Part shown: one piece after another, positions 45,167 through 63,946 of the stretch
Layout: every line of letters begins with the position of its first letter
How positions within the stretch are numbered: position 1 is the stretch's first letter
NCBI GenBank assembly: GCA_951406725.2
Contig: OX597817.1
Coordinates: forward strand, 107,756,001 to 107,820,000
Length of the DNA stretch: 64,000 bases
DNA from: Octopus vulgaris
Taxonomy: Eukaryota
Reading direction: 5' to 3'
Program-made: the position numbers and the translations under genes
Notes under the pieces: generated by a model
Database searches by the model: none
What the model was told of the DNA's origin: nothing
What the model saw: the letters and a program-made list of their open reading frames with translations, nothing else

Positions 45167-46006
45167 TATATGAATATACATGTATGTGTATAAGTGCAGA
45201 TATGTGTGTATTTTATATTCCTGACACTTTCCTTTGTTTTCTGTTATAATATTTTGTGAATGAACTGACATCTTCACCCTGTGCATATTTCAGATGGATT
45301 AAATTTGAAGAAGATGTGGAAGAAGGTGGTGACCGATGGTCGAAACCTCACGTTGCAACATTATCCCTGCATTCAATTTTTGAACTGCGCTGTTGTATTA
45401 TGAGTGGTACATGTATGTTGGACATGGATACTTCTAACATGCAGCAAATGTCAGGTAAATGAAATATTCTTAGTTGTTCTTACATTGCATTTGACAAATA
45501 GTTGAAAGTTAAATGTTTGAGAAGGTTGTTTTATGACATTGTGGTTTGAGGTTCCGTCCTATTGTGCTGCATCTGGGGTATGTACCTTCTATGGCCCTGG
45601 GCCAATCAATGCCCTGCGAGTGAATTTGGTAGAAGGAAACTGTGTGGAATCCTGTTGTGTGTGTATATACATGTGTGTGTGTGTGTGTGTGTTATGTTTG
45701 TTGTGTTTCTCCCCCATCTCTTAACAACCAGTATTGGATTGTTAACACCTTTTTCCCCTAACTTGGCAGTTTTACAAAAGAAAATCAATACAGTAAGTAT
45801 GAGACTTTAAAAAAATGAGTACTAGGATTGATTGATTCAACTCATATTTGATAAACTAAGGCGCAGGAGTGGCTGTGTGGTAAGTAGCTTGTCTACCAAC
45901 CACATGGTTCCGGGTTCAGTCCCACTGCGTGGCACCTTGGGCAAGTGTCTTCTACTATAGCCTGTGAGTGGATTTGGTAGACGGAAACTGAAAGAAGCCC
46001 GTCGTA

Positions 46007-46055
<49 letters not shown>

Positions 46056-49000
46056 TTGTGTGTCTGTGTTTGTCCCCTAGCATTCTTGACAACCGATGCT
46101 GGTGTGTTTATGTCCCCGTTACTTAGCGGTTCGGCAAAAGAGACTGATAGAATAAGTACTGGGCTTACAAAAGAATAAGCCATGGGGTCGAGTCGCTCGA
46201 TTAAAGGCGGTGCTCCAGCATGGCCGCAGTCAAATGACTGAAACAAGTAAAAGAGTAATCTGAATGCTAAAGGGTTAAGTGCTTTTAACAGAGTTTCCAG
46301 GTCAGCTTCTTCTCTCTCTTCTATTAGTCTCATGAGCTGCAGCCATGCTGGGACACAACCGTAACCCTTTAGCATTCAGATTAGTTTATCAAATATACTG
46401 CTTTTTTAATCATATTGTTTGGAATTAATCATACATTATCTTGTTGCTTTGAGATTTCGATTAAGGGAATAGTTTACTTTTAGTATGACGTTTCAGGGTA
46501 GATGTAAGAGACTGTATTTGATCAGTTTGAACATAAAACAAAGAGAATGTTTTGGCCAGATATGGCCAGTTTAAATGCTAAAGGGTTAAGAACCACATGT
46601 TGGGTTAAGTCTACCTCTCAAACTGAGAGATGAAAGTAGGAAAACTACTGCTGTAGCTTAATAAGTTGGCTGAAGTTAATTTGAGGAGAACTTCACTGTT
46701 ATTTTTTGCAGGTCTAGCAAACTCACTAGATGCACTCTTGAGAGACAGGTTTATTTTGTATAAACTAACTGTCATAAGAGTGGATGACTTAATTTTTTTT
46801 TTTCAATCACTGAATTTCATGATTTTGTGTACTATTGTGGAGTACAAATAAAGTTTTGGAGTTGAAGCTCTAGCCCTGAGAAAAAAAAAGAAAAAATTGT
46901 ATGCAAGAAGAAAATATATTTGGTCTAAATGATTAAGCATTAGATTAATCAAATTATAGTGTAAAACATGAGATTAGGAAAATTAGTTAACAGAAATTTG
47001 AATTAATTGATAAACATTTAAAAAATAATTACAAAATTTTACAAATTTAATACCTGGTAAACTTTAAATATAATTGCTTCTATGATATGCCAATGTTTGT
47101 AATGGTAAATATTTCATTCAATCATACTTTGTAATTTCTATTCCTCCCTCCCACTCTCTCTCTCTTTATTTTTGTTTTTTTACAATGAATCAGAATAAAT
47201 TGGATTTGCTAATCACTTAAATTGTATTTTCTGTTTAACAGACCTGATCTTAGATACCATGATGGCTAATAAACAACTTGCTGAAGAAAATAGAGAGAAA
47301 GTGAAAGAAACACTACTCAGTCGTCATCGGCATCAACATGAAAAACGTTATCGCAAACCCGAAGAATCAGGGAGTAAACTTCATCTTCCAATCATCAGAT
47401 CTTTGGCTGACATTGGCAAGAAATATTCAGAACCCAAAAATTTGGGCCAACATGGTAAATATAAGTGATTTATTGAATTGCTAATCAATAATATTATGGA
47501 ATATTCTTTTGATTTGAAAAAGCTGTAGATCCAAAGTTCCTTTCTGTTCACTTTTCTCTAAATGAATTTATCTCTTTCAGACATGTTGTTATTCTAATGA
47601 ATAATAAATTTCTTTTCTTTTTTTTCTCTTATGATACATAAGCTTGGGGAACAGGCAAACTTCTGTCTGAATTGTGGATGCTGTAATGTAATGTTTATCT
47701 TTCAGTTAATTATGGAAGAATGCATTCTCTATTGCCTATAATTACATCTGATGGGGCACACAAACTGGTACTCGGAAAATCCTCTGAAGCTGAAGGTGTA
47801 CCAAGCAAGCTTTTCTGATTGCTAGAAGTGTTTTATGGTTCATCTTGTTTTGTCAAATTCAGATATCAAATAGCTAGTTATTTGAGATGCTGTTGGACAA
47901 GATTTTATCCTCTCACCCCAACTATACAACTGTAATCTTTAATAAAATAATTCCTAAGCATTGAACTCAGAGCAAGGCATACTATTTGGGTAACTAAATA
48001 GAAGGAGTGAATTAACCCTCTTCTTATCCAAAGCATTTTCATAAGCTTTTCCATCCTTGTTTTCAGACTATTAGTTCACTCTTGCTTCATATATTCTGAG
48101 TAATATAAAGCTTTCCTTTCATAAATCCCCAAAATGTGTACCATGATACCTGGACTCTAGGAAAATGTGTTCTGTGATACACTGGACAGGCAAAAGGTCA
48201 AAGGGAACACACTCTAAGATCACTCTGAGGTAGATTTTCATGTTCTTCCTCTCAGCAGTAACTCAGGTATTCAGTCACTCAAATTGAATAACTGGTAAAA
48301 GTATCATTCTTTACAAATCTTTTAAATTTGACCTATGAAGCTCAGAAAGGTACTGTGATAAGAAATTAAGTTTCATGGTAATCATGTGTTTAGGGTGGAA
48401 AATACATATATGGATAATAGTAAACTTAACTTTATCTCTACTTCCTTCTATTGAAAATATAGAGTAAGTGGTGAGAGAAACAATATTCATTAGAACGAAG
48501 AAATGTATCAAAGGAAGGAGAAAGTGAAGAGAAAGACACTTGTTTCCACAACCTTGTCATTGCAAAGCAGTATATATTTGGTGATCAAAAGAATATGGAA
48601 AATTTGTTTCCTGTCTGTGCTGCATCACAGTTTATTGAAGCTTGTTGCACTGCAGTCTCCTACGATAACCAGCAGTAGAGTAAAGTGACTATACATCAAA
48701 AACTAGCTGCTTCATATATATCACGACCAGCTGAACATAACCAGTTTAAAAACTGACAAGTTTCTGCAGTGAAGAAAATAGCTCAATTTGCTTAAATTGA
48801 ATTTTATTAGCTTGAGTTCTAAAGTAAAAATCTCTTTTCAGACACTAAGCTTGGTACAAAAAGTACTCCAAATTTAGGATTGGTTCGGAATAATACCTCT
48901 GCTGGCATTTCAGGGACATCACCAACCAGTAGTACTTTGCAACCAAGTCCGTCATTCTCCAATAGCGATCTCCCTGAAGTTCCTTCATCCCACAAGGTGA

Positions 49001-57216: not shown

Positions 57217-60200
57217 GCCATAAAGTGAGTCAATTCTTGTCTGTAACTTTGATTTAAATCTTGGTTTGTAACTGTTTCACTTCATTTTTATTATGAATGT
57301 CACTGAGAAAGCACGACCACCACAAATCGTATATAAAGTAAGTAGACCTGATCATCTATCAACAGATATCTGAATATGTAAAATGGAGCAATTGATTTTG
57401 TTTATTACTCACGTTTGAGAAAAAGTTGAAAAATTATTGACCCTGTTGTTATCATCCCATTCATCCATTTGGATGGAAGGATGGATTATAACATATGTAA
57501 ATTGATATGATTTATTTTCAGTAAGACCCCTGCTAAAATTTGTCTGAATTTACACACTTGTCACTAAATGGAGGAAGTTCTTAGCTATATTTTTGTAAAT
57601 TGAAAAGATTAATTGTGTTTGAAGAGGTTTTCTATTGTGAAATAACTTCTTACACTTTTAGGCAGCCTTTGAGAGTATTCTTGCTGGTGCCATTTGTGGA
57701 ATTGTGTATGCCTTGATTTCTGGTCAACCTTTGACTATTTTGGGAAGTACAGGTCCTGTTCTGGTATTTGAAACTATCCTGTATAACTTTTGTTCGTGAG
57801 TATTGTTGTTTTACTTTCATTTAATTGTATTAACTATTTAAAGAGTTTATTTAATTATTTATTTAGAGTTGACAGTGAAAGGTAGAGAGCTGGAATGAAT
57901 AGATGGGGCTCAAAACTTCAATCAAATAGTGAAGGGAGAGACATAGGAGTAAATCACATAACTGTATCCCGCTTAGTAATTATATAGTTGTCATATAAAT
58001 AGCATTGATATTATATTTACTGATTACGATGAGGATCAAATGTAGTGATAGTGTTAGTATGATATATTTTTTTACAAGTTTAAGTCATTTGACTGCAGCC
58101 ATGCTGGAGCACTGCCTTAAAGGGTTTTTTAGTGAAAGAAATTGATCTCAGGACTTATTCTTTGCAAGCCTAGTACTTATTCTGTTGGTCTCTTTTACCA
58201 AATCTCTAAGTTACAGGGACATAAACACACCAGTATCGGTTGTCAAGTGGTGGTGGGGATCAAACACAGACACGAATATACACACATAAATACAGGAGTA
58301 CCAGTGTCTTGGACACACAAGGGAGTCTTCCTATTTACATTGTTATCTGGATAAGTATTGGTTTCCATTGTTGCAAAAAATGAGACTGATTTTCTACAAG
58401 GTTTAGTACCCCTCTCTCTGAGTGTGTTCAGTTGAGATTTTCATGTAAAAGGTCACCCCAATTGCAACATCAGCTCTTATTTGGTTGCCAGCTAAGGCTT
58501 AGGGATACCAAGTTAGTCCTGTGTAAATTGCTGCAGGAGTCCCACAGATGCAGAGGTTGCACCAGCCTATGCAGGACAGGGATGGCATCATTTCCCTGAG
58601 CTGTTCACATGAAGAGCTGCATACCCTAATATTATTACTATTATTATTATTAAGGTGGCAAGCTGGCAGAATCGTTAGCACATTGAATGAAATGCTTAGC
58701 AGTATTTTGCCTGTCATTGCATTCTGAGTTCAAATTCTGCTAAGTTGACTTTGCCTTTCATCCTTTTGGGGTCAATAACTTAAGTATCAGTGAAACACTG
58801 GGGTTGATGTAATCGACTAGTCCCCTCCTGCCAAATAGTAGAAAGAATTATTATTATTATTATAAGTTTTTTTTTGGTTTACTGTATTTTGAAAAGGACA
58901 AACATAAGATCTTTATATTAGTGTAATAGTAGTGACAATGATAATAATAACAATGGTTTCTCATGACTTTTAACGTGAAAATGTAATATTTTATCTTTCC
59001 TTTCCAGGGAGCAACAGTTTGACTATCTGGCATTCCGGCTGTGGATTGGTATATGGACTGGTTTGGTCCTCTTTATTATAGTTGCGTTGGATCTCAGTGC
59101 ATTAGTACGCTATATCACACGTTTCACTGAAGAAAGCTTTGCTGCCCTTATCTCATTGATTTTCATTGTGGAAGCTCTGGCAAAACTGTACCACATCAAA
59201 GACAACTACCCTATAAAAACACTGTCCTCTGTTACTCCTTATGTCAACTGCACTTGTGTTGAATCCAACAAAACTGTACCTGAAATCTATATAAACACTA
59301 CCTCACTAAATTGGACTGATATTGAATGGGATAAATGTAAAAGGTATGGAGGTGTTCTAATAGGGCTGGGCTGTAATTTCAAGCCATATGTACCAGATGT
59401 ATTTTTCTTGTCTACTATCTTGTTCTTTGGTACATTTACTATATCTATGTCATTGAAAGCTTCAAGAAACAGCAGTTTTTTTCCCTCTTCAGTAAGTTCT
59501 ATTTCACTTTGTACATTTTTTTTATTGCATGTAGTTTCAGAACTCTAATTTTACATATGCAAATTTATGTATAAGAGCCAATCATTTTGTCATAATAAAT
59601 CATAAAGATAACATGTGATTAATTACCAAAGTATAATGATTCTTTTTTAGAATTATGGATCTTGAAGCAGACAAAAAAAAAGCTATAAATAAGAGCATAC
59701 AAATATAGGGTTAAAAATAACCCTTGGATAGAAAAAATCAAAAGAGATGCAGTTCCATGCCTCATGGACAGTTTTTGACTTTTTCAATCCAAGAGTTTTT
59801 TTAAGCCCAATATTTACATGCTATTATCTATAGCTTTCTGCCCTTTGAGAGCCATCACTCCAAAAGAGAATTATTTCATGTTTATTGAAGTTTGTATGTT
59901 TGTATGATATCATTACCAAATTTCATAACCTTATATATTTCAAATTAAATTATTTTCTTAAGTAATGCCTCAAACTTAACACAAACCTTTATATGTAGTT
60001 TTGTACATTACTTTCATATAAATCTGATCTAGCAGTTATGTTACTTAAACCTTTGAAGCAGCTAAGACTTATTGTAAACTTCAGTTTTCTCAGAATCAGA
60101 GCTTAAAGAGTTTTAATAGCAATTTCTTTTAGTTAAACCAGTTGGTTGCACAGAGTATCACGATATCTGTCTTGAGACTACAAATCAATTATCAGACTGC

Positions 60201-61470
60201 ATAAAGTGATGTGTTGTTGAGTACAGCACTTGGAAATTGTAATCACTCTCGCCTGAAGCATTTAGAAAATGCTTCAGACAGGAGTGATTACAATTTTTCT
60301 GGGAAAAACTTCAGTATATTAGTTAAAATTATATCATCTGAACAGATGGCTAATACATTAAAAGTGTTATGTCCTTAAGAAACCTCATTTGGTCACATTC
60401 AATGATAGTATTTTGGTCAGCCAACCCTTGTATTAATAACATACAGATTCTCATTGGAATTTTTAATGTTAGTTCCACAAACTTATGTACTGCTGCATGT
60501 AAAAGGGGAGTTGGTGGTGAGTATTCACATGCATAAAACAAAATAATATAACCATATATTGATGTAGAACAAGTACCAGCAGAACACTGAGGTCAATGTA
60601 ATCAACTTATGCCCTCCCGCCAAACTTGCTGGCCTAGTACCAAAATATGAAAATTATAACAATCAAAGTCAATTTGCACATAAACAATCACATCATCGAA
60701 ACTTCAAAGTTACAAGATAATGCAGTATAAATTCAAAACAATGTAAATAAATAAGCATTACATTTGACAGAATAATCTGAGTGCTAAAGGGTTAAATTCT
60801 AAAATTGTGATGAACATAATGTTTACAAGGATATGATATAATTAAGAAATTATAGTTTGAAAGGAAATAATATATATATATGTATATATATATATACTTG
60901 CAGTTTGAAAGCAAGATAATATGTTATGGATGCTGTGAGGTTGGGTAAATGTAGAGTAAAAGAGAAAGTGCATCACTGAATTCATGTTATACCAGCTTAC
61001 ACACTATGTGCATATATGTGATGTGTGTGTGTGTGTGTGTGTGCGTGAGTATAAAAAACATGTCAGAAGTAATAGGTATAGTTATATCAGTAATAATTAC
61101 ATTATAATGACCATAATTGTTTGTAAGATTAGTAAAAGTAGTATGGTCTATGTAACCAGTATGAATGTCTCACTAGAAACTATCTACCAACACCTATATA
61201 CAGATAGTTCTACATTTGTGCATATGTATAGAGAAAAATAATGTTTATCACCACATCAATATGTCTGTTCCTTAGGAATCGATGTTACTACTGCTTTTAA
61301 CCCTGGGAGGAGCCTCCTCCAGCTGGTTATTGATACAATCTGCACCTGATAACCACTGGAGGAGGCTCCTCCTGGGGTTAAAAATGGTAGTAACATTGAT
61401 TCCTATTAAACAGCCATATTGATGTGGCAATAAACATTACTTCTTGGTATAGTTACTACTTTCATCTCTT

Positions 61471-61531
<61 letters not shown>

Positions 61532-63946
61532 TAGATAGATAGATAGATACTTACAATTATATATATACACTTACAATTTGTTATTTGTTTAATTATAGTG
61601 AGTAAATATTTGATACCTTGTGGCTACCATTTTTTTGTTTTTCTTCTTGCAGATACGGGCAATTATAAGTGACTTTGCTGTTATCATTGCAATTATTTCC
61701 ATGGTTTTGTTAGATGCCCTCATCGATTTAGATACTCCTAAACTTAAAGTGCCTACTGAATTTAAGGTGAGCTCTCTAACTCTAAGAATCTCTTGTGTTT
61801 CACTTCTTATCTTTCATCTTTTACTTGTTTTAGTTGTTGAACTGTAACCATGCTGGAGTACTCATTTTTTTGAAGTCTGGCACTTATTCTATTGGTCTCA
61901 TTCATCAAAGTGCCAGGTTATGGGGATTTAGAGAAATCAACACCAGTTCTCAAGCAGCAGCAGCGATGGTGGTGGGCAATGGTGGAACAAGCACAAATAC
62001 AAAAGCACACTCACATACACATACATACGCACACACATGATGGGCTTCTGCGCAGTTTCCATCTACCAAATTCACTTGCAAGGCCTTAGTCAACCCAAGG
62101 CCATAGTAGAAGACACTTGCATAAGTGCTGCAGAGTGGGACTGAACTCAAAACCACTTGCTTGGAAAGCAAGCTTCTTAACTACACACCCATATTATCAT
62201 TATTATTATTATATTTTTAAAAGTTTATGTAGAAGACAAAGGATGGTGGTGTCCTGGTCTCTCTGTTTAGTGGAGTGGAGGAAAGAGAGGAAGAAACTAT
62301 GATTGACTTTTTAAATCACAGCCAGGAATTATACCTCAACAGTATTCATCCAATCGATGTAGGTATGGAAAAGTGGACATAAAATCAATGAGGATGATGC
62401 ATATATTTGTATGATTTATTTCAGATCTGTTATACTGATGGGCAGAAAGCTCAGTTTTAACAATTTTATTTTTCGTTTGTTCTGTATCAGTTTTTTTTTT
62501 TCCCCCAAATTGTTATTCTTCTGTTAAAGCACATCAGTTTCTGTCTAATTTTTTTTTATATATTTATTAATGTATTTTTTCTGCCTCCTGTTTTCTTATA
62601 GCCTACCCTACCAACCCGTGGATGGGTGGTGAATCCTTTCAAGAACCCCTGGTGGACAATACTTGCTGCCATTATCCCTGCCATGCTATGCACCATTCTT
62701 ATCTTTATGGATCAGCAGATTACTACTGTCATTGTAAATAGAAAAGAAAACAAACTGAAAGTAAGTTTACTACATTTCAGTTTTACTTTAACCCTTTAGC
62801 ACTCAGATTATTCTGTCAAATGTAATGCTTAATTATTTACATTGTTTTGAATTTATCCTGCATTATCTTGTAACTTTGAAATTTCGATGATGTGATTGTT
62901 TATGTGCAAAATGACTTTGATTGTTATAATTTTCATATTTTGGTACTAGGCCAGCAAGTACGGCGGGAGGGCATAAGTTGATTACATTGACCTCAGTGTT
63001 CTGCTGGTACTTGTTCTACATCAATATATGGTTATATTATTTTGTTTTATGCATTTGAATACTCACCACCAACTCCCCTTTTACATGCAGCAGTACATAA
63101 GTTTGTGGAACTAACATTAAAAATTCCAATGAGAATCTGTATGTTATTAATACAAGGGTTGGCTGACCAAAATACTATCATTGAATGTGACCAAATGAGG
63201 TTTATTTTCTAACACAGTCCCCTTTACAGTCCATACACTTCTTCCATTAGCACTGCAGTACTCAGATCTCATTGGTGAAGAAGGTTTCATCCTGTTGCTC
63301 AAAAAAGTCATCAACAGCAGATAGGATGAAAGGCAAAGTTGACCTTAGTGGAATTTGAACCCAGAATGTAAAGACGGATGAAATACTGCTAAAGCATTTC
63401 ACCCAGTATGCTAATGGTTCTGCCAGTTCACCACCCTCAATCAAAGCATAATATTGATTCCAGATTTTGGTACAAGGACAGAAATTTCGAGGAGGGAGCA
63501 AGTCAATTGTGTTGACCCCAGTGCTCAAGTGATATCTATTTTATCAACCCCAAAAAGATGAAAGGCAAAGTCACTAAACATTTTGGCTGGCATACTAACG
63601 ATTCTGCCAGCTCACTGCCTTCAATAAACATAATATTAACTTTTATTAACATGAAATAAAATTCTCTTTGTTTATCCTTAAATATTGCATGAAGCAAACT
63701 TTTCCAATAATAAAATTTCCATTTGATTAGTATTTTGTCACTGATGTTTCTTCCTTGTTTATTACAGAAAGGCCATGGTTACCATTTAGATCTCTTTGTA
63801 ATTGCTACCCTCATTTTAGTCTGTTCCTTCCTTGGCCTGCCATGGTTCGTGGCAGCCACTGTCCTCTCCATTACACATGTCATGAGTTTGAAAAAAGAAT
63901 CTCAATGTACAGCTCCTGGTGAAAGTCCAAAATTTCTTGGTGTTCG
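37788..63946 (+). CDS. SLC4A10-like: SLC4-family Na+-coupled bicarbonate transporter (SLC4A7/8/10, NDCBE-like), partial; join(37788..37926,45294..45454,47242..47454,48842..48996,49479..49724,54114..54260,55769..55875,56499..56673,57662..57795,59008..59491,61653..61766,62602..62760,63768..63946)
   Basis: 13 AG/GT-bounded exons with compatible phases. SLC4 motifs: [78 protein letters not shown]. Exact vertebrate orthologue cannot be assigned from this sequence. Confidence 0.95.
41570..41955 (-). mobile_element. Penelope-like element GIY-YIG endonuclease C-terminal fragment
   Basis: [39 protein letters not shown]...CLLCTTE...LLN...KC; next to a (TA)n tract. Confidence 0.7.
42213..43175 (-). mobile_element. 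RTE LINE 3' kb (RT C-terminus, UTR and tail), disrupted
   Basis: [20 protein letters not shown]...; in-frame stop; [12 protein letters not shown]...GRGRPRKTW; (atg)n tail. Confidence 0.9.
43392..43443 (+). ncRNA. Degenerate minimal hammerhead ribozyme
   Basis: gtct gTGATGA a gggatatt..aatatcct a GAAg cagct GTA agac; stems intact, two core substitutions. Confidence 0.55.
43651..44417. repeat. Compound (TA)n/(TATG) microsatellite
   Basis: Direct inspection; source of YIYI pseudo-ORFs. Confidence 0.97.
44772..44832 (-). ncRNA. Minimal type I hammerhead ribozyme with intact core
   Basis: Minus strand: atggtg CTGAAGA aagactttaggc-aatttctc-gcctacgatcta GAAAC at GTT caccat; 6-bp stem I, palindromic aacatgtt stem III. 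Confidence 0.7.
45294..45454 (+). CDS. SLC4A10-like: SLC4 exon ([27 protein letters not shown]...)
   Basis: atttcag acceptor, CAG|gtaaat donor; phase 2 to 1. Confidence 0.95.
45860..46257 (+). mobile_element. tRNA-derived SINE, young copy
   Basis: Highly similar to 22890-23327; CpGs retained. Confidence 0.88.
46362..46589. mobile_element. piggyBac-type MITE
   Basis: taaccctttagcatt / aatgctaaagggttaa. Confidence 0.78.
47242..47454 (+). CDS. SLC4A10-like: SLC4 exon ([11 protein letters not shown]...[22 protein letters not shown])
   Basis: tttaacag acceptor, ATG|gtaaat donor; phase 1 to 1. Confidence 0.93.
48842..48996 (+). CDS. SLC4A10-like: SLC4 exon, Ser/Thr-rich variable N-terminal loop ([52 protein letters not shown]); absent from the ORF track
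   Basis: ctcttttcag acceptor, AAG|gtgagt donor, open frame; needed to bridge phase 1 to phase 0. Confidence 0.88.
49479..49724 (+). CDS. SLC4A10-like: SLC4 exon ([14 protein letters not shown]...[15 protein letters not shown])
   Basis: attttcag acceptor, GAG|gttagt donor; phase 0 to 0. Confidence 0.95.
51722..52950. repeat. Compound microsatellite with a higher-order unit
   Basis: Recurrent atagatgtatgtatatacatagatatatat separated by variable (TA)n. Confidence 0.95.
53170..53265 (+). ncRNA. Hammerhead-like motif with long stem II loop
   Basis: tc CTGAAGA t tggggttgc...gcacctca t GAAAC tcgt GTA ga; stem I only 2 bp. Confidence 0.4.
53594..54062 (+). repeat. Tandem duplication (units of about 220-250 bp), each with a hammerhead-like motif
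   Basis: cttt CTGtAGA a gagc-atag-gctc GAAAC GTA aaag at 53620-53655; decayed copy at 53841-53876; shared downstream block of about 75 bp. Confidence 0.85.
54114..54260 (+). CDS. SLC4A10-like: SLC4 exon ([10 protein letters not shown]...[22 protein letters not shown])
   Basis: acacag acceptor, CAG|gtgaga donor; phase 0 to 0. Confidence 0.95.
54670..54922 (+). mobile_element. Mariner 5' fragment
   Basis: tattgggtc TIR start; [22 protein letters not shown] transposase N-terminus, truncated at a microsatellite. Confidence 0.75.
55008..55384 (+). mobile_element. RTE 3' UTR/tail fragment
   Basis: Reverse complement of 42213-42580; (atg)n tail. Confidence 0.85.
55769..55875 (+). CDS. SLC4A10-like: SLC4 exon ([36 protein letters not shown])
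   Basis: tgttgcag acceptor, ACG|gtaaat donor; ends in the conserved LxRTGR; phase 0 to 2. Confidence 0.93.
56499..56673 (+). CDS. SLC4A10-like: SLC4 exon, TM1 ([14 protein letters not shown]...[15 protein letters not shown])
   Basis: actttcag acceptor, ATG|gtaatt donor; phase 2 to 0. Confidence 0.95.
57662..57795 (+). CDS. SLC4A10-like: SLC4 exon, TM2-3 ([44 protein letters not shown])
   Basis: cttttag acceptor, TTC|gtgagt donor; phase 0 to 2; absent from the ORF track. Confidence 0.95.
59008..59491 (+). CDS. SLC4A10-like: SLC4 exon, TM4-6 with 4-Cys glycosylated extracellular loop 3
   Basis: tttccag acceptor, TCA|gtaagt donor; YITRFTEE and YVPDVF; sequons NCT, NKT, NTT, NWT. Confidence 0.95.
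59678..59837. repeat. Imperfect hairpin (MITE-like)
   Basis: aaagctata...cttggat / atccaag...tatagcttt. Confidence 0.7.
60380..60796. repeat. Arm 1 of a 417-bp inverted duplication
   Basis: Reverse complement of 62787-63203, about 7 mismatches counted by eye. Confidence 0.95.
61240..61438. mobile_element. Palindromic MITE-like hairpin
   Basis: aatgtttatcaccacatcaatatg...ggaggagcctcctccag / ctggaggaggctcctcc...catattgatgtggcaataaacatt. Confidence 0.8.
61653..61766 (+). CDS. SLC4A10-like: SLC4 exon, TM7 ([12 protein letters not shown]...[10 protein letters not shown])
   Basis: cttgcag acceptor, AAG|gtgagc donor; phase 0 to 0. Confidence 0.95.
62602..62760 (+). CDS. SLC4A10-like: SLC4 exon, TM8 ([12 protein letters not shown]...[18 protein letters not shown])
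   Basis: cttatag acceptor, AAA|gtaagt donor; phase 0 to 0; absent from the ORF track. Confidence 0.95.
62787..63203. repeat. Arm 2 of the 417-bp inverted duplication (MITE end, SINE piece and mariner-flanking sequence)
   Basis: Starts 27 nt into the intron after 62760; continues into a mariner C-terminal relic ([16 protein letters not shown], minus strand). Confidence 0.95.
63768..63946 (+). CDS. SLC4A10-like: SLC4 exon, TM9-10 (KGHGYHLDL...[10 protein letters not shown])
   Basis: attacag acceptor, TCG|gtaagt donor; phase 0 to 2. Confidence 0.95.

What the first reader, a model, noticed from the sequence alone, without database searches (positions are those of the whole stretch)
60380..63203. 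Young 417-bp inverted duplication brackets two phase-0 exons: candidate circRNA/exon-skipping device with a stop-free circular ORF
Seen: 60380-60796 and 62787-63203 are reverse complements with about 7 mismatches. The unit is a mosaic of MITE end, SINE piece and mariner-flanking DNA, so it is a local copy, not two independent insertions. Arm 2 is probably the donor because it continues into the mariner relic. The arms enclose exons 61653-61766 and 62602-62760 (114+159=273 nt, both phase 0), and arm 2 starts 27 nt after the donor. Known: reverse-complementary intronic matches promote back-splicing and are ADAR substrates. Inference: the pre-mRNA could yield a 273-nt circle whose 91-codon frame has no stop, an in-frame isoform lacking TM7-8, or hyper-edited dsRNA.
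Basis: partly seen in the sequence, partly recalled or inferred. Interest (0 to 1): 0.75.

Follow-up and report, generated by a model that had tools for sequence, protein, structure and literature searches.

The report
Transposon-ended inverted copy around transporter exons
In an octopus bicarbonate-transporter gene, a 417-base piece of intron sits copied in mirror image 2 kb away, enclosing two exons; it was likely made by a transposon accident and likely just gives the RNA-editing enzyme a target, and no circular or exon-skipped RNA from it has been shown.

Summary
The repeat is real: 417 nt, 7 mismatches, enclosing two phase-0 exons (273 nt) of an octopus SLC4 Na+/bicarbonate transporter. 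It is a local copy: its 151-nt core occurs only twice in the genome search, and arm 2 is the donor. One copy end falls exactly on a TTAA-MITE terminus and arm 1 has TTAA on both sides, which points to a transposase-triggered origin (inferred). Arm 1's outer junction is in DNA contigs of 4 of 4 runs with four species labels, and arm-to-arm divergence equals between-label flank divergence: not very young, no sign of selection. The stop-free circle is trivial (18 of 45 exon blocks of this gene give one). All 7 annotated O. vulgaris isoforms and 130 of 130 testable homologues keep both exons; a skip would remove TM8 ion-binding residues. Published octopus data show few circRNAs (296) and much intronic editing. 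No pair this good was in a 1.6-Mb control, but 4-6 slightly weaker ones were. Back-splice, skip, editing and arm 2 in other animals were not tested on reads. Verdict: likely a neutral ADAR substrate, a new member of a known kind.

The parts
60380..60796 (-). Arm 1: the inserted local copy of 62787-63203, inverted, in single-copy intron DNA
   Evidence: both flanks single-copy in G000; outer junction bridged in 4 of 4 runs
60375..60378 (.). TTAA one base outside arm 1's outer end; candidate target-site duplication
   Evidence: TTAA frequency 0.8% per position; absent at the donor's matching position
60792..60795 (.). TTAA at the MITE terminus, inner end of arm 1
   Evidence: family copies begin and end with TTAA
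62787..63203 (+). Arm 2: donor segment
   Evidence: family matches run across its outer end into the mariner relic
62788..62915 (+). One terminus plus about 125 nt of a ~245-nt TTAA-flanked MITE (piggyBac-like ends; label recalled); the other half is missing
62930..63015 (.).
   Evidence: 30-37 hits per position in the 1.86-Mb sample
63016..63148 (.). Single-copy spacer, present only in the two arms
   Evidence: 2 matches of 2 candidates for 63005-63155; 0 other hits
63149..63328 (-). Decayed mariner 3' end (transposase tail and terminus); only 63149-63203 was copied into arm 1
   Evidence: 38 other places at 82-87%; related loci read as broken transposase C-termini with a YSPDL-like motif; motif name recalled
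61653..61766 (+). Exon A of the SLC4 transporter (38 aa; TM7 region, numbering recalled), phase 0/0
62602..62760 (+). Exon B (53 aa; TM8 region with the conserved Asp), phase 0/0
59008..59491 (+). Upstream exon (donor for a hypothetical skip)
63768..63946 (+). Downstream exon (acceptor for a hypothetical skip)

Best explanation
A 417-bp intron segment that begins at a MITE end lies as an inverted copy 2 kb upstream in the neighbouring intron, likely placed there by a one-ended transposition or transposase-triggered repair event, and the pair is likely a neutral by-product whose predicted RNA duplex would mainly be edited by ADAR. Shown: the two-copy mosaic, the donor direction, the copy end on the MITE terminus, TTAA on both sides of arm 1, arm 1 in four species labels, and mutations on both arms at about the flank's rate. 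Inferred origin: the transposase acted on the single intact MITE end at 62788-62792, joined it to a nearby TTAA, and the other end was closed by host repair inside the mariner (odds about 0.5; MITE-primed ectopic repair 0.35; generic template switch 0.15). Inferred RNA behaviour: when the upstream intron is still unspliced as arm 2 is transcribed, the arms pair into a ~417-bp duplex that loops out both exons. ADAR would edit and loosen it, and strong splice sites would keep both exons in most mRNA. A 273-nt circle or a skipped mRNA may arise at a low level as a by-product.
For: Spacer found twice only. Mariner continuity at arm 2 only. Inner end within 1 nt of the MITE's TTAA, and only 1 of 53 repeat pairs of >=200 nt and >=92% in 1.86 Mb has an end there. 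TTAA 1 nt outside the outer end, about 2-3% by chance. Against family majority letters, 3 mismatches arose on arm 1, 2 on arm 2, 2 are unresolved. Arm-arm 7/417 versus flank 9/467 for label B, p=0.81; variable sites in spacer 2/135 versus flank 14/467, p=0.54. 7 of 7 O. vulgaris isoforms and 130 of 130 testable homologues keep both exons. Both acceptors have 18 of 20 pyrimidines, among the highest of 17. PMC9699675 (passages; supplement passages): editing is mostly intronic or 3'UTR, circRNAs are low, 296 in all. bioRxiv 10.1101/2020.01.19.911685 (passages): octopus has the highest editing rate of the taxa sampled and young repeats are preferred targets.
Against: No RNA reads were examined, so editing is not shown and low circle/skip levels are not shown. 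The pair is stronger than any in the 1.6-Mb control and is the strongest inverted pair near this gene, with arm 2 only 26 nt from the donor; such matches do promote both back-splicing and skipping elsewhere (PMC8330042 abstract). The divergence tests have little power. Annotated isoforms miss rare and circular forms. In all 4 runs only one contig covers the spacer, so arm 2 was not seen separately outside G000. No outgroup empty site was available to confirm the TTAA duplication.
Confidence: 0.6

Rival explanations
1. The duplex rarely forms or is resolved without trace: the 2.2-kb upstream intron is spliced before arm 2 is made, so the pair is inert at the RNA level.
For: Strong acceptors; all annotated isoforms are normal here; arm 1 is 856 nt from the acceptor.
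Against: Arm 2 is complete only about 1.5 kb after exon A's acceptor, and the predicted duplex is very stable (-704.5 kcal/mol); intronic editing is common in octopus.
Confidence: 0.2
2. A working regulatory switch: the arms drive a 273-nt circRNA and/or an in-frame skip that lowers the amount of active transporter, tuned by ADAR.
For: Geometry fits the known mechanism (PMC8330042 abstract; PMC13019027 abstract); upper-tail strength; arm 1 kept in four species labels.
Against: No extra conservation of the arms; no skipped isoform among 7 O. vulgaris models or 130 homologues; acceptors are strong, whereas weak acceptors are the ones reported prone to loop-out skipping; circRNAs are scarce in octopus; stop-free frame is the default for symmetric exons.
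Confidence: 0.08
3. Origin by homology-primed repair: a separate MITE already sat at arm 1's site; a break there invaded the half MITE of arm 2, copied about 290 nt beyond it, and was joined back at the old TTAA. (Concerns origin only; the confidence is for that question.)
For: Also explains the end on the MITE terminus and both TTAAs; mismatches are denser in the MITE part (4/132 versus 3/285).
Against: That difference is not significant (p=0.21); the two MITE parts are 97% alike against 84-90% for other family copies; no remnant of a second MITE end at 60379.
Confidence: 0.35
4. The two-armed state is not general: arm 2's copy is missing or rearranged in other individuals or species, or is peculiar to the reference.
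For: In 4 of 4 runs a single contig runs unbroken through arm 1's outer junction and the spacer, with no second contig on the spacer.
Against: Arm 2 is the donor and carries the older letter at 3 sites, so it predates those changes; X4's contig shows arm 2's letter at 60528 and all four contigs are deeper than their neighbours (21 v 17/14; 32 v 17; 12.8 v 6.8/7.1; 6.9 v 6/3.9), as a collapsed two-copy stretch would be.
Confidence: 0.1

Closest known systems
Reverse-complementary intronic matches that promote back-splicing and exon skipping (C. elegans zip-2, PMC8330042, abstract read; inverted Alu pairs, PMC13019027, abstract read; TBXT Alu pair, PMC10901737, search listing only)
   Same: Inverted pair in the two introns flanking a short exon block; predicted stable duplex; block length a multiple of 3.
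   Different: Arms come from one local copy of mixed DNA, not two insertions of one family; far more alike (98%); acceptors are strong; no RNA product, no deletion test and no conservation signal here.
Alternative-transposition composite insertions of maize Ac/Ds (PMC4270019, abstract read)
   Same: A transposon terminus bounds a local segmental copy, with a probable target-site duplication.
   Different: Only one terminus, of a non-autonomous TTAA MITE, and the copied DNA lies behind that terminus; the far end is a repair-type junction; 417 bp; no transposase identified.
Stop-free circRNAs translated in rolling circles, promoted by A-to-I editing (tau, PMC9825173, abstract read)
   Same: Stop-free exon circle with in-frame ATGs (3 in frame).
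   Different: The circle itself is hypothetical here; the product would be repeats of two membrane helices; nothing shows initiation.
SLC4 Na+-coupled bicarbonate transporters (NDCBE/NBCn; squid Na-dependent Cl/HCO3 exchanger P0003)
   Same: Exon B is 47/53 and exon A 30/38 identical to the squid protein; best solved-structure matches are NDCBE, NBCn1 and NBCe1.
   Different: Nothing unusual in the protein; the host gene is ordinary and intact in this region.

Membership tests
RCM-driven circRNA / loop-out skipping locus | Reverse-complementary match in both flanking introns | tested here: met
RCM-driven circRNA / loop-out skipping locus | Back-splice junction reads, RNase R resistant | not tested
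   No RNA reads were examined; the RNA-like runs listed were contigs only
RCM-driven circRNA / loop-out skipping locus | Skipped linear isoform | tested here: inconclusive
   0 of 7 O. vulgaris isoforms and 0 of 130 testable homologues lack the exons; annotations miss rare forms
RCM-driven circRNA / loop-out skipping locus | Loss of product when one arm is deleted | not testable with these tools
   needs a minigene or an edited animal
RCM-driven circRNA / loop-out skipping locus | Arms conserved above neutral (for a functional case) | tested here: inconclusive
   no excess seen (p=0.81 and p=0.54) but few sites
ADAR hyper-edited intronic duplex | Long near-perfect duplex possible in one transcript | tested here: met
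   both arms on the transcribed span; -704.5 kcal/mol predicted; 163 and 121 adenines
ADAR hyper-edited intronic duplex | Clustered A>G in RNA against matched DNA | not tested
   no RNA reads examined
One-ended / alternative transposition product | Copy boundary at a transposon terminus | tested here: met
   1 of 53 pairs in the sample
One-ended / alternative transposition product | Target-site duplication proven by an empty site | tested here: inconclusive
   TTAA on both sides; no joint skipping arm 1 among the 15 of 23 joints listed; flanks have no paralogue
One-ended / alternative transposition product | Cognate transposase that recognises this end | not tested
   not searched
Intact two-ended MITE or composite transposon family | Terminal repeats at both ends and dispersed full-length copies | tested here: not met
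   only one terminus; no third full-length copy among the 40 candidates scored in each; spacer found twice

The most novel reading that the evidence does not exclude
A one-ended MITE transposition built, shortly before these octopus species split, an intronic duplex that lets ADAR activity set how much of a neuronal-type pH-regulating transporter is diverted into a 273-nt circle or a TM7-8-less dead isoform, possibly with rolling translation of the circle.
Probability: 0.05. Interest if true: 0.7.

Novelty: new member of a known kind. Interest (0 to 1): 0.25.

Why it matters
As it stands it is a tidy example of a known thing: transposon ends make local inverted copies, and intronic inverted copies feed ADAR. 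Its use is as a test locus: an unusually strong, datable match around constitutive exons in the animal group with very high editing, where one can ask whether ADAR and strong splice sites fully suppress back-splicing. It would matter more only if a sizeable circle or skip were found and shown to depend on the arms.

Tried and rejected
Two independent insertions of one TE family: rejected. Assembly artefact for arm 1: rejected for the outer junction (4 of 4 runs); the inner junction is crossed by contigs of X4 and X6 with only about 30 letters on the arm side, below the tool's 31-letter bar. Inversion of the enclosed 2 kb: rejected, both exons are in the gene's orientation and order. Stop-free ORF as a signal: rejected. 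Empty site from paralogues: none; one 26-nt likeness 72 kb upstream has E=0.19. ADAR marks fixed in the DNA: none, only 2 of 7 mismatches are transitions. No RNA holder was listed as on record in the run search; this says nothing on expression. Back-splice, skip, editing and arm 2 junctions in other runs remain open on reads. The published octopus circRNA list was not found: 0 hits in the two zip supplements, and the PDF gives only totals (first 3 places per term seen). Paper searches: octopus + circular RNA + inverted repeat gave 1 unrelated review; cephalopod + circRNA gave 17 papers, 15 listed, none on this gene by title. Earlier scan notes: none near, none by words, 58 in the genome of which 8 were shown and none concerned this locus. 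One search stopped with an error after printing 12 loci.

Full report
Observation. The two stretches are reverse complements over 417 nt with 7 mismatches and no gaps, 1990 nt apart. They lie in the introns on either side of exons 61653-61766 and 62602-62760. Both exons are phase 0 at both ends, and their 273-nt circle has no stop in frame 0. Arm 2 begins 26 nt behind the donor; arm 1 ends 856 nt before the acceptor.

Host gene. The upstream exon is 100% identical to an Octopus vulgaris SLC4 protein (P0001) and 63% to the squid Na-dependent Cl/HCO3 exchanger. Exons A and B match solved NDCBE, NBCn1 and NBCe1 chains. In NDCBE, TM7 is in the gate domain, TM8 is in the core, and Na+ and carbonate are coordinated at TM3, TM8 and TM10; D800C changes transport (PMC8478935, passages). 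That exon B's Asp is the D800 equivalent is my inference from the alignment and recalled numbering. A skip would stay in frame but would likely give a dead transporter. All 7 O. vulgaris isoforms, and the O. bimaculoides, Argonauta and squid proteins, keep both exons. Of the 138 proteins fetched, 130 matched both neighbouring exons well enough to test, and 0 of 130 lack the block.

Anatomy. Read from arm 2's inner end: TTAA, about 125 nt of a ~245-nt MITE whose other copies are 84-90% alike and end in TTAA on both sides, a piece of a common short repeat, a single-copy spacer, and the last 55 nt of a mariner relic. The spacer has 2 matches among 2 candidates in the genome, so this is one local copy. 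Family matches run across arm 2's outer end but stop at arm 1's, and arm 1's flanks are single-copy: arm 2 is the donor.

Origin (inferred). The inner end of the copy is within 1 nt of the MITE's terminal TTAA. Of 53 direct or inverted pairs of at least 200 nt and 92% in 1.86 Mb, only this one has an end at that terminus. A second TTAA lies 1 nt outside arm 1's outer end and is not in the donor; at 0.8% per position that is a 2-3% coincidence. The simplest reading is one-ended transposition into a nearby TTAA with repair of the far end. Repair primed from an older MITE at the site explains the same marks. An outgroup allele would tell them apart; I had none. Maize composite insertions are the closest described class (PMC4270019, abstract).

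Age and reality. I laid 4 of the 24 listed runs, all contigs, on 59000-61460. In 4 of 4 runs, with organism labels A, B, C and D, one contig bridges arm 1's outer junction. In X4 and X6 a contig also crosses the inner junction, with about 30 letters on the arm side. No listed joint skips arm 1 (15 of 23 joints shown). In 467 nt of clean flank the runs differ from the window at 4, 9, 9 and 8 places (my count from table 3). The arms differ from each other at 7 of 417, the same rate (p=0.81). Family majority letters put 3 changes on arm 1 and 2 on arm 2, with 2 unresolved. So the copy likely dates to about the split of these species and has drifted since; the tests are weak. Against my reading: only one contig covers the spacer in each run, so arm 2 was not seen separately. 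Higher depth on that contig and arm 2's letter at 60528 in X4 fit a collapsed two-copy stretch, but this is not proof.

How unusual. In 16 control blocks of 100 kb (round-number places, not gene-matched), no inverted pair reached 400 nt and 97% within 10 kb. Pairs of at least 280 nt and 95% occurred at 4 places within 5 kb and 6 within 10 kb, which scales roughly to several thousand in 2.8 Gb. A 1108-nt segment is enclosed by such a pair 0.4-1.5% of the time, and by a pair of at least 150 nt and 85% 6-22% of the time. One control pair looks like a similar local mosaic copy (481 nt, 94%, 1166 nt apart). So this pair is in the upper tail of a common class.

The circular ORF. Any block of coding exons with equal phases at both ends closes into a stop-free circle. 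In this gene 18 of 45 blocks of 1-3 internal exons do so. It is not evidence of function. Rolling translation of stop-free circles exists for tau (PMC9825173, abstract).

RNA outcome (inferred). The predicted duplex is -704.5 kcal/mol. Such matches can promote both back-splicing and skipping (PMC8330042, abstract), mostly at weak acceptors for Alu pairs (PMC13019027, abstract). Here both acceptors have 18 of 20 pyrimidines, matched or exceeded by only 2 of the other 15. In O. vulgaris most editing is intronic or in 3'UTRs and circRNAs are low, 296 in all, 200 in one tissue only (PMC9699675, passages and supplement passages); the list itself was not in the files I could search, and it may bear on this locus. 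Young repeats are preferred editing targets and octopus has the highest rate among sampled taxa (bioRxiv 10.1101/2020.01.19.911685, passages). Editing of the arms is therefore the likeliest outcome, with circle or skip as minor by-products. None of the three was tested on reads.

Verdict. Observation confirmed; interpretation partly supported. A real, transposon-ended local inverted copy, likely neutral; new member of a known kind; interest 0.25.

Noticed in passing
window 61227-61451: A second inverted repeat (96-nt arms, 82%, 33-nt loop) of a repeated element lies between arm 1 and exon A; another possible local hairpin in the same intron.
   Followed up: no
window 60234-60296: 63-nt imperfect palindrome (86%) 80 nt upstream of arm 1's insertion point; X4 has small deletions in its centre.
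   Followed up: no
window 58654-58764 and 63323-63435: A weaker inverted pair of short repeats (111 nt, 80.5%) encloses three exons, 59008-62760.
   Followed up: no
run X4 on window 59000-59835: A run guessed to be DNA shows depth 172-386 over the exon region against 17-32 in the intron; it may hold RNA or amplified material.
   Followed up: no
L092-L093 (C3 block 59969-60449 and 61616-62101): A 481-nt, 94% inverted pair 1166 nt apart with 223 nt not matched elsewhere in the sample: a likely second local inverted copy, without the MITE end.
   Followed up: partly
L064-L065 (C1b block 79108-80749) and L071 (C2a block 45172-46794): Near-perfect inverted arms of 325 and 281 nt about 1 kb apart, with further copies elsewhere in the sample; possibly young elements with long terminal repeats.
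   Followed up: no
upstream of the window to 37787: The transporter's first two mapped exons lie 23-25 kb before the window, leaving about 61 kb before the next mapped exon.
   Followed up: no
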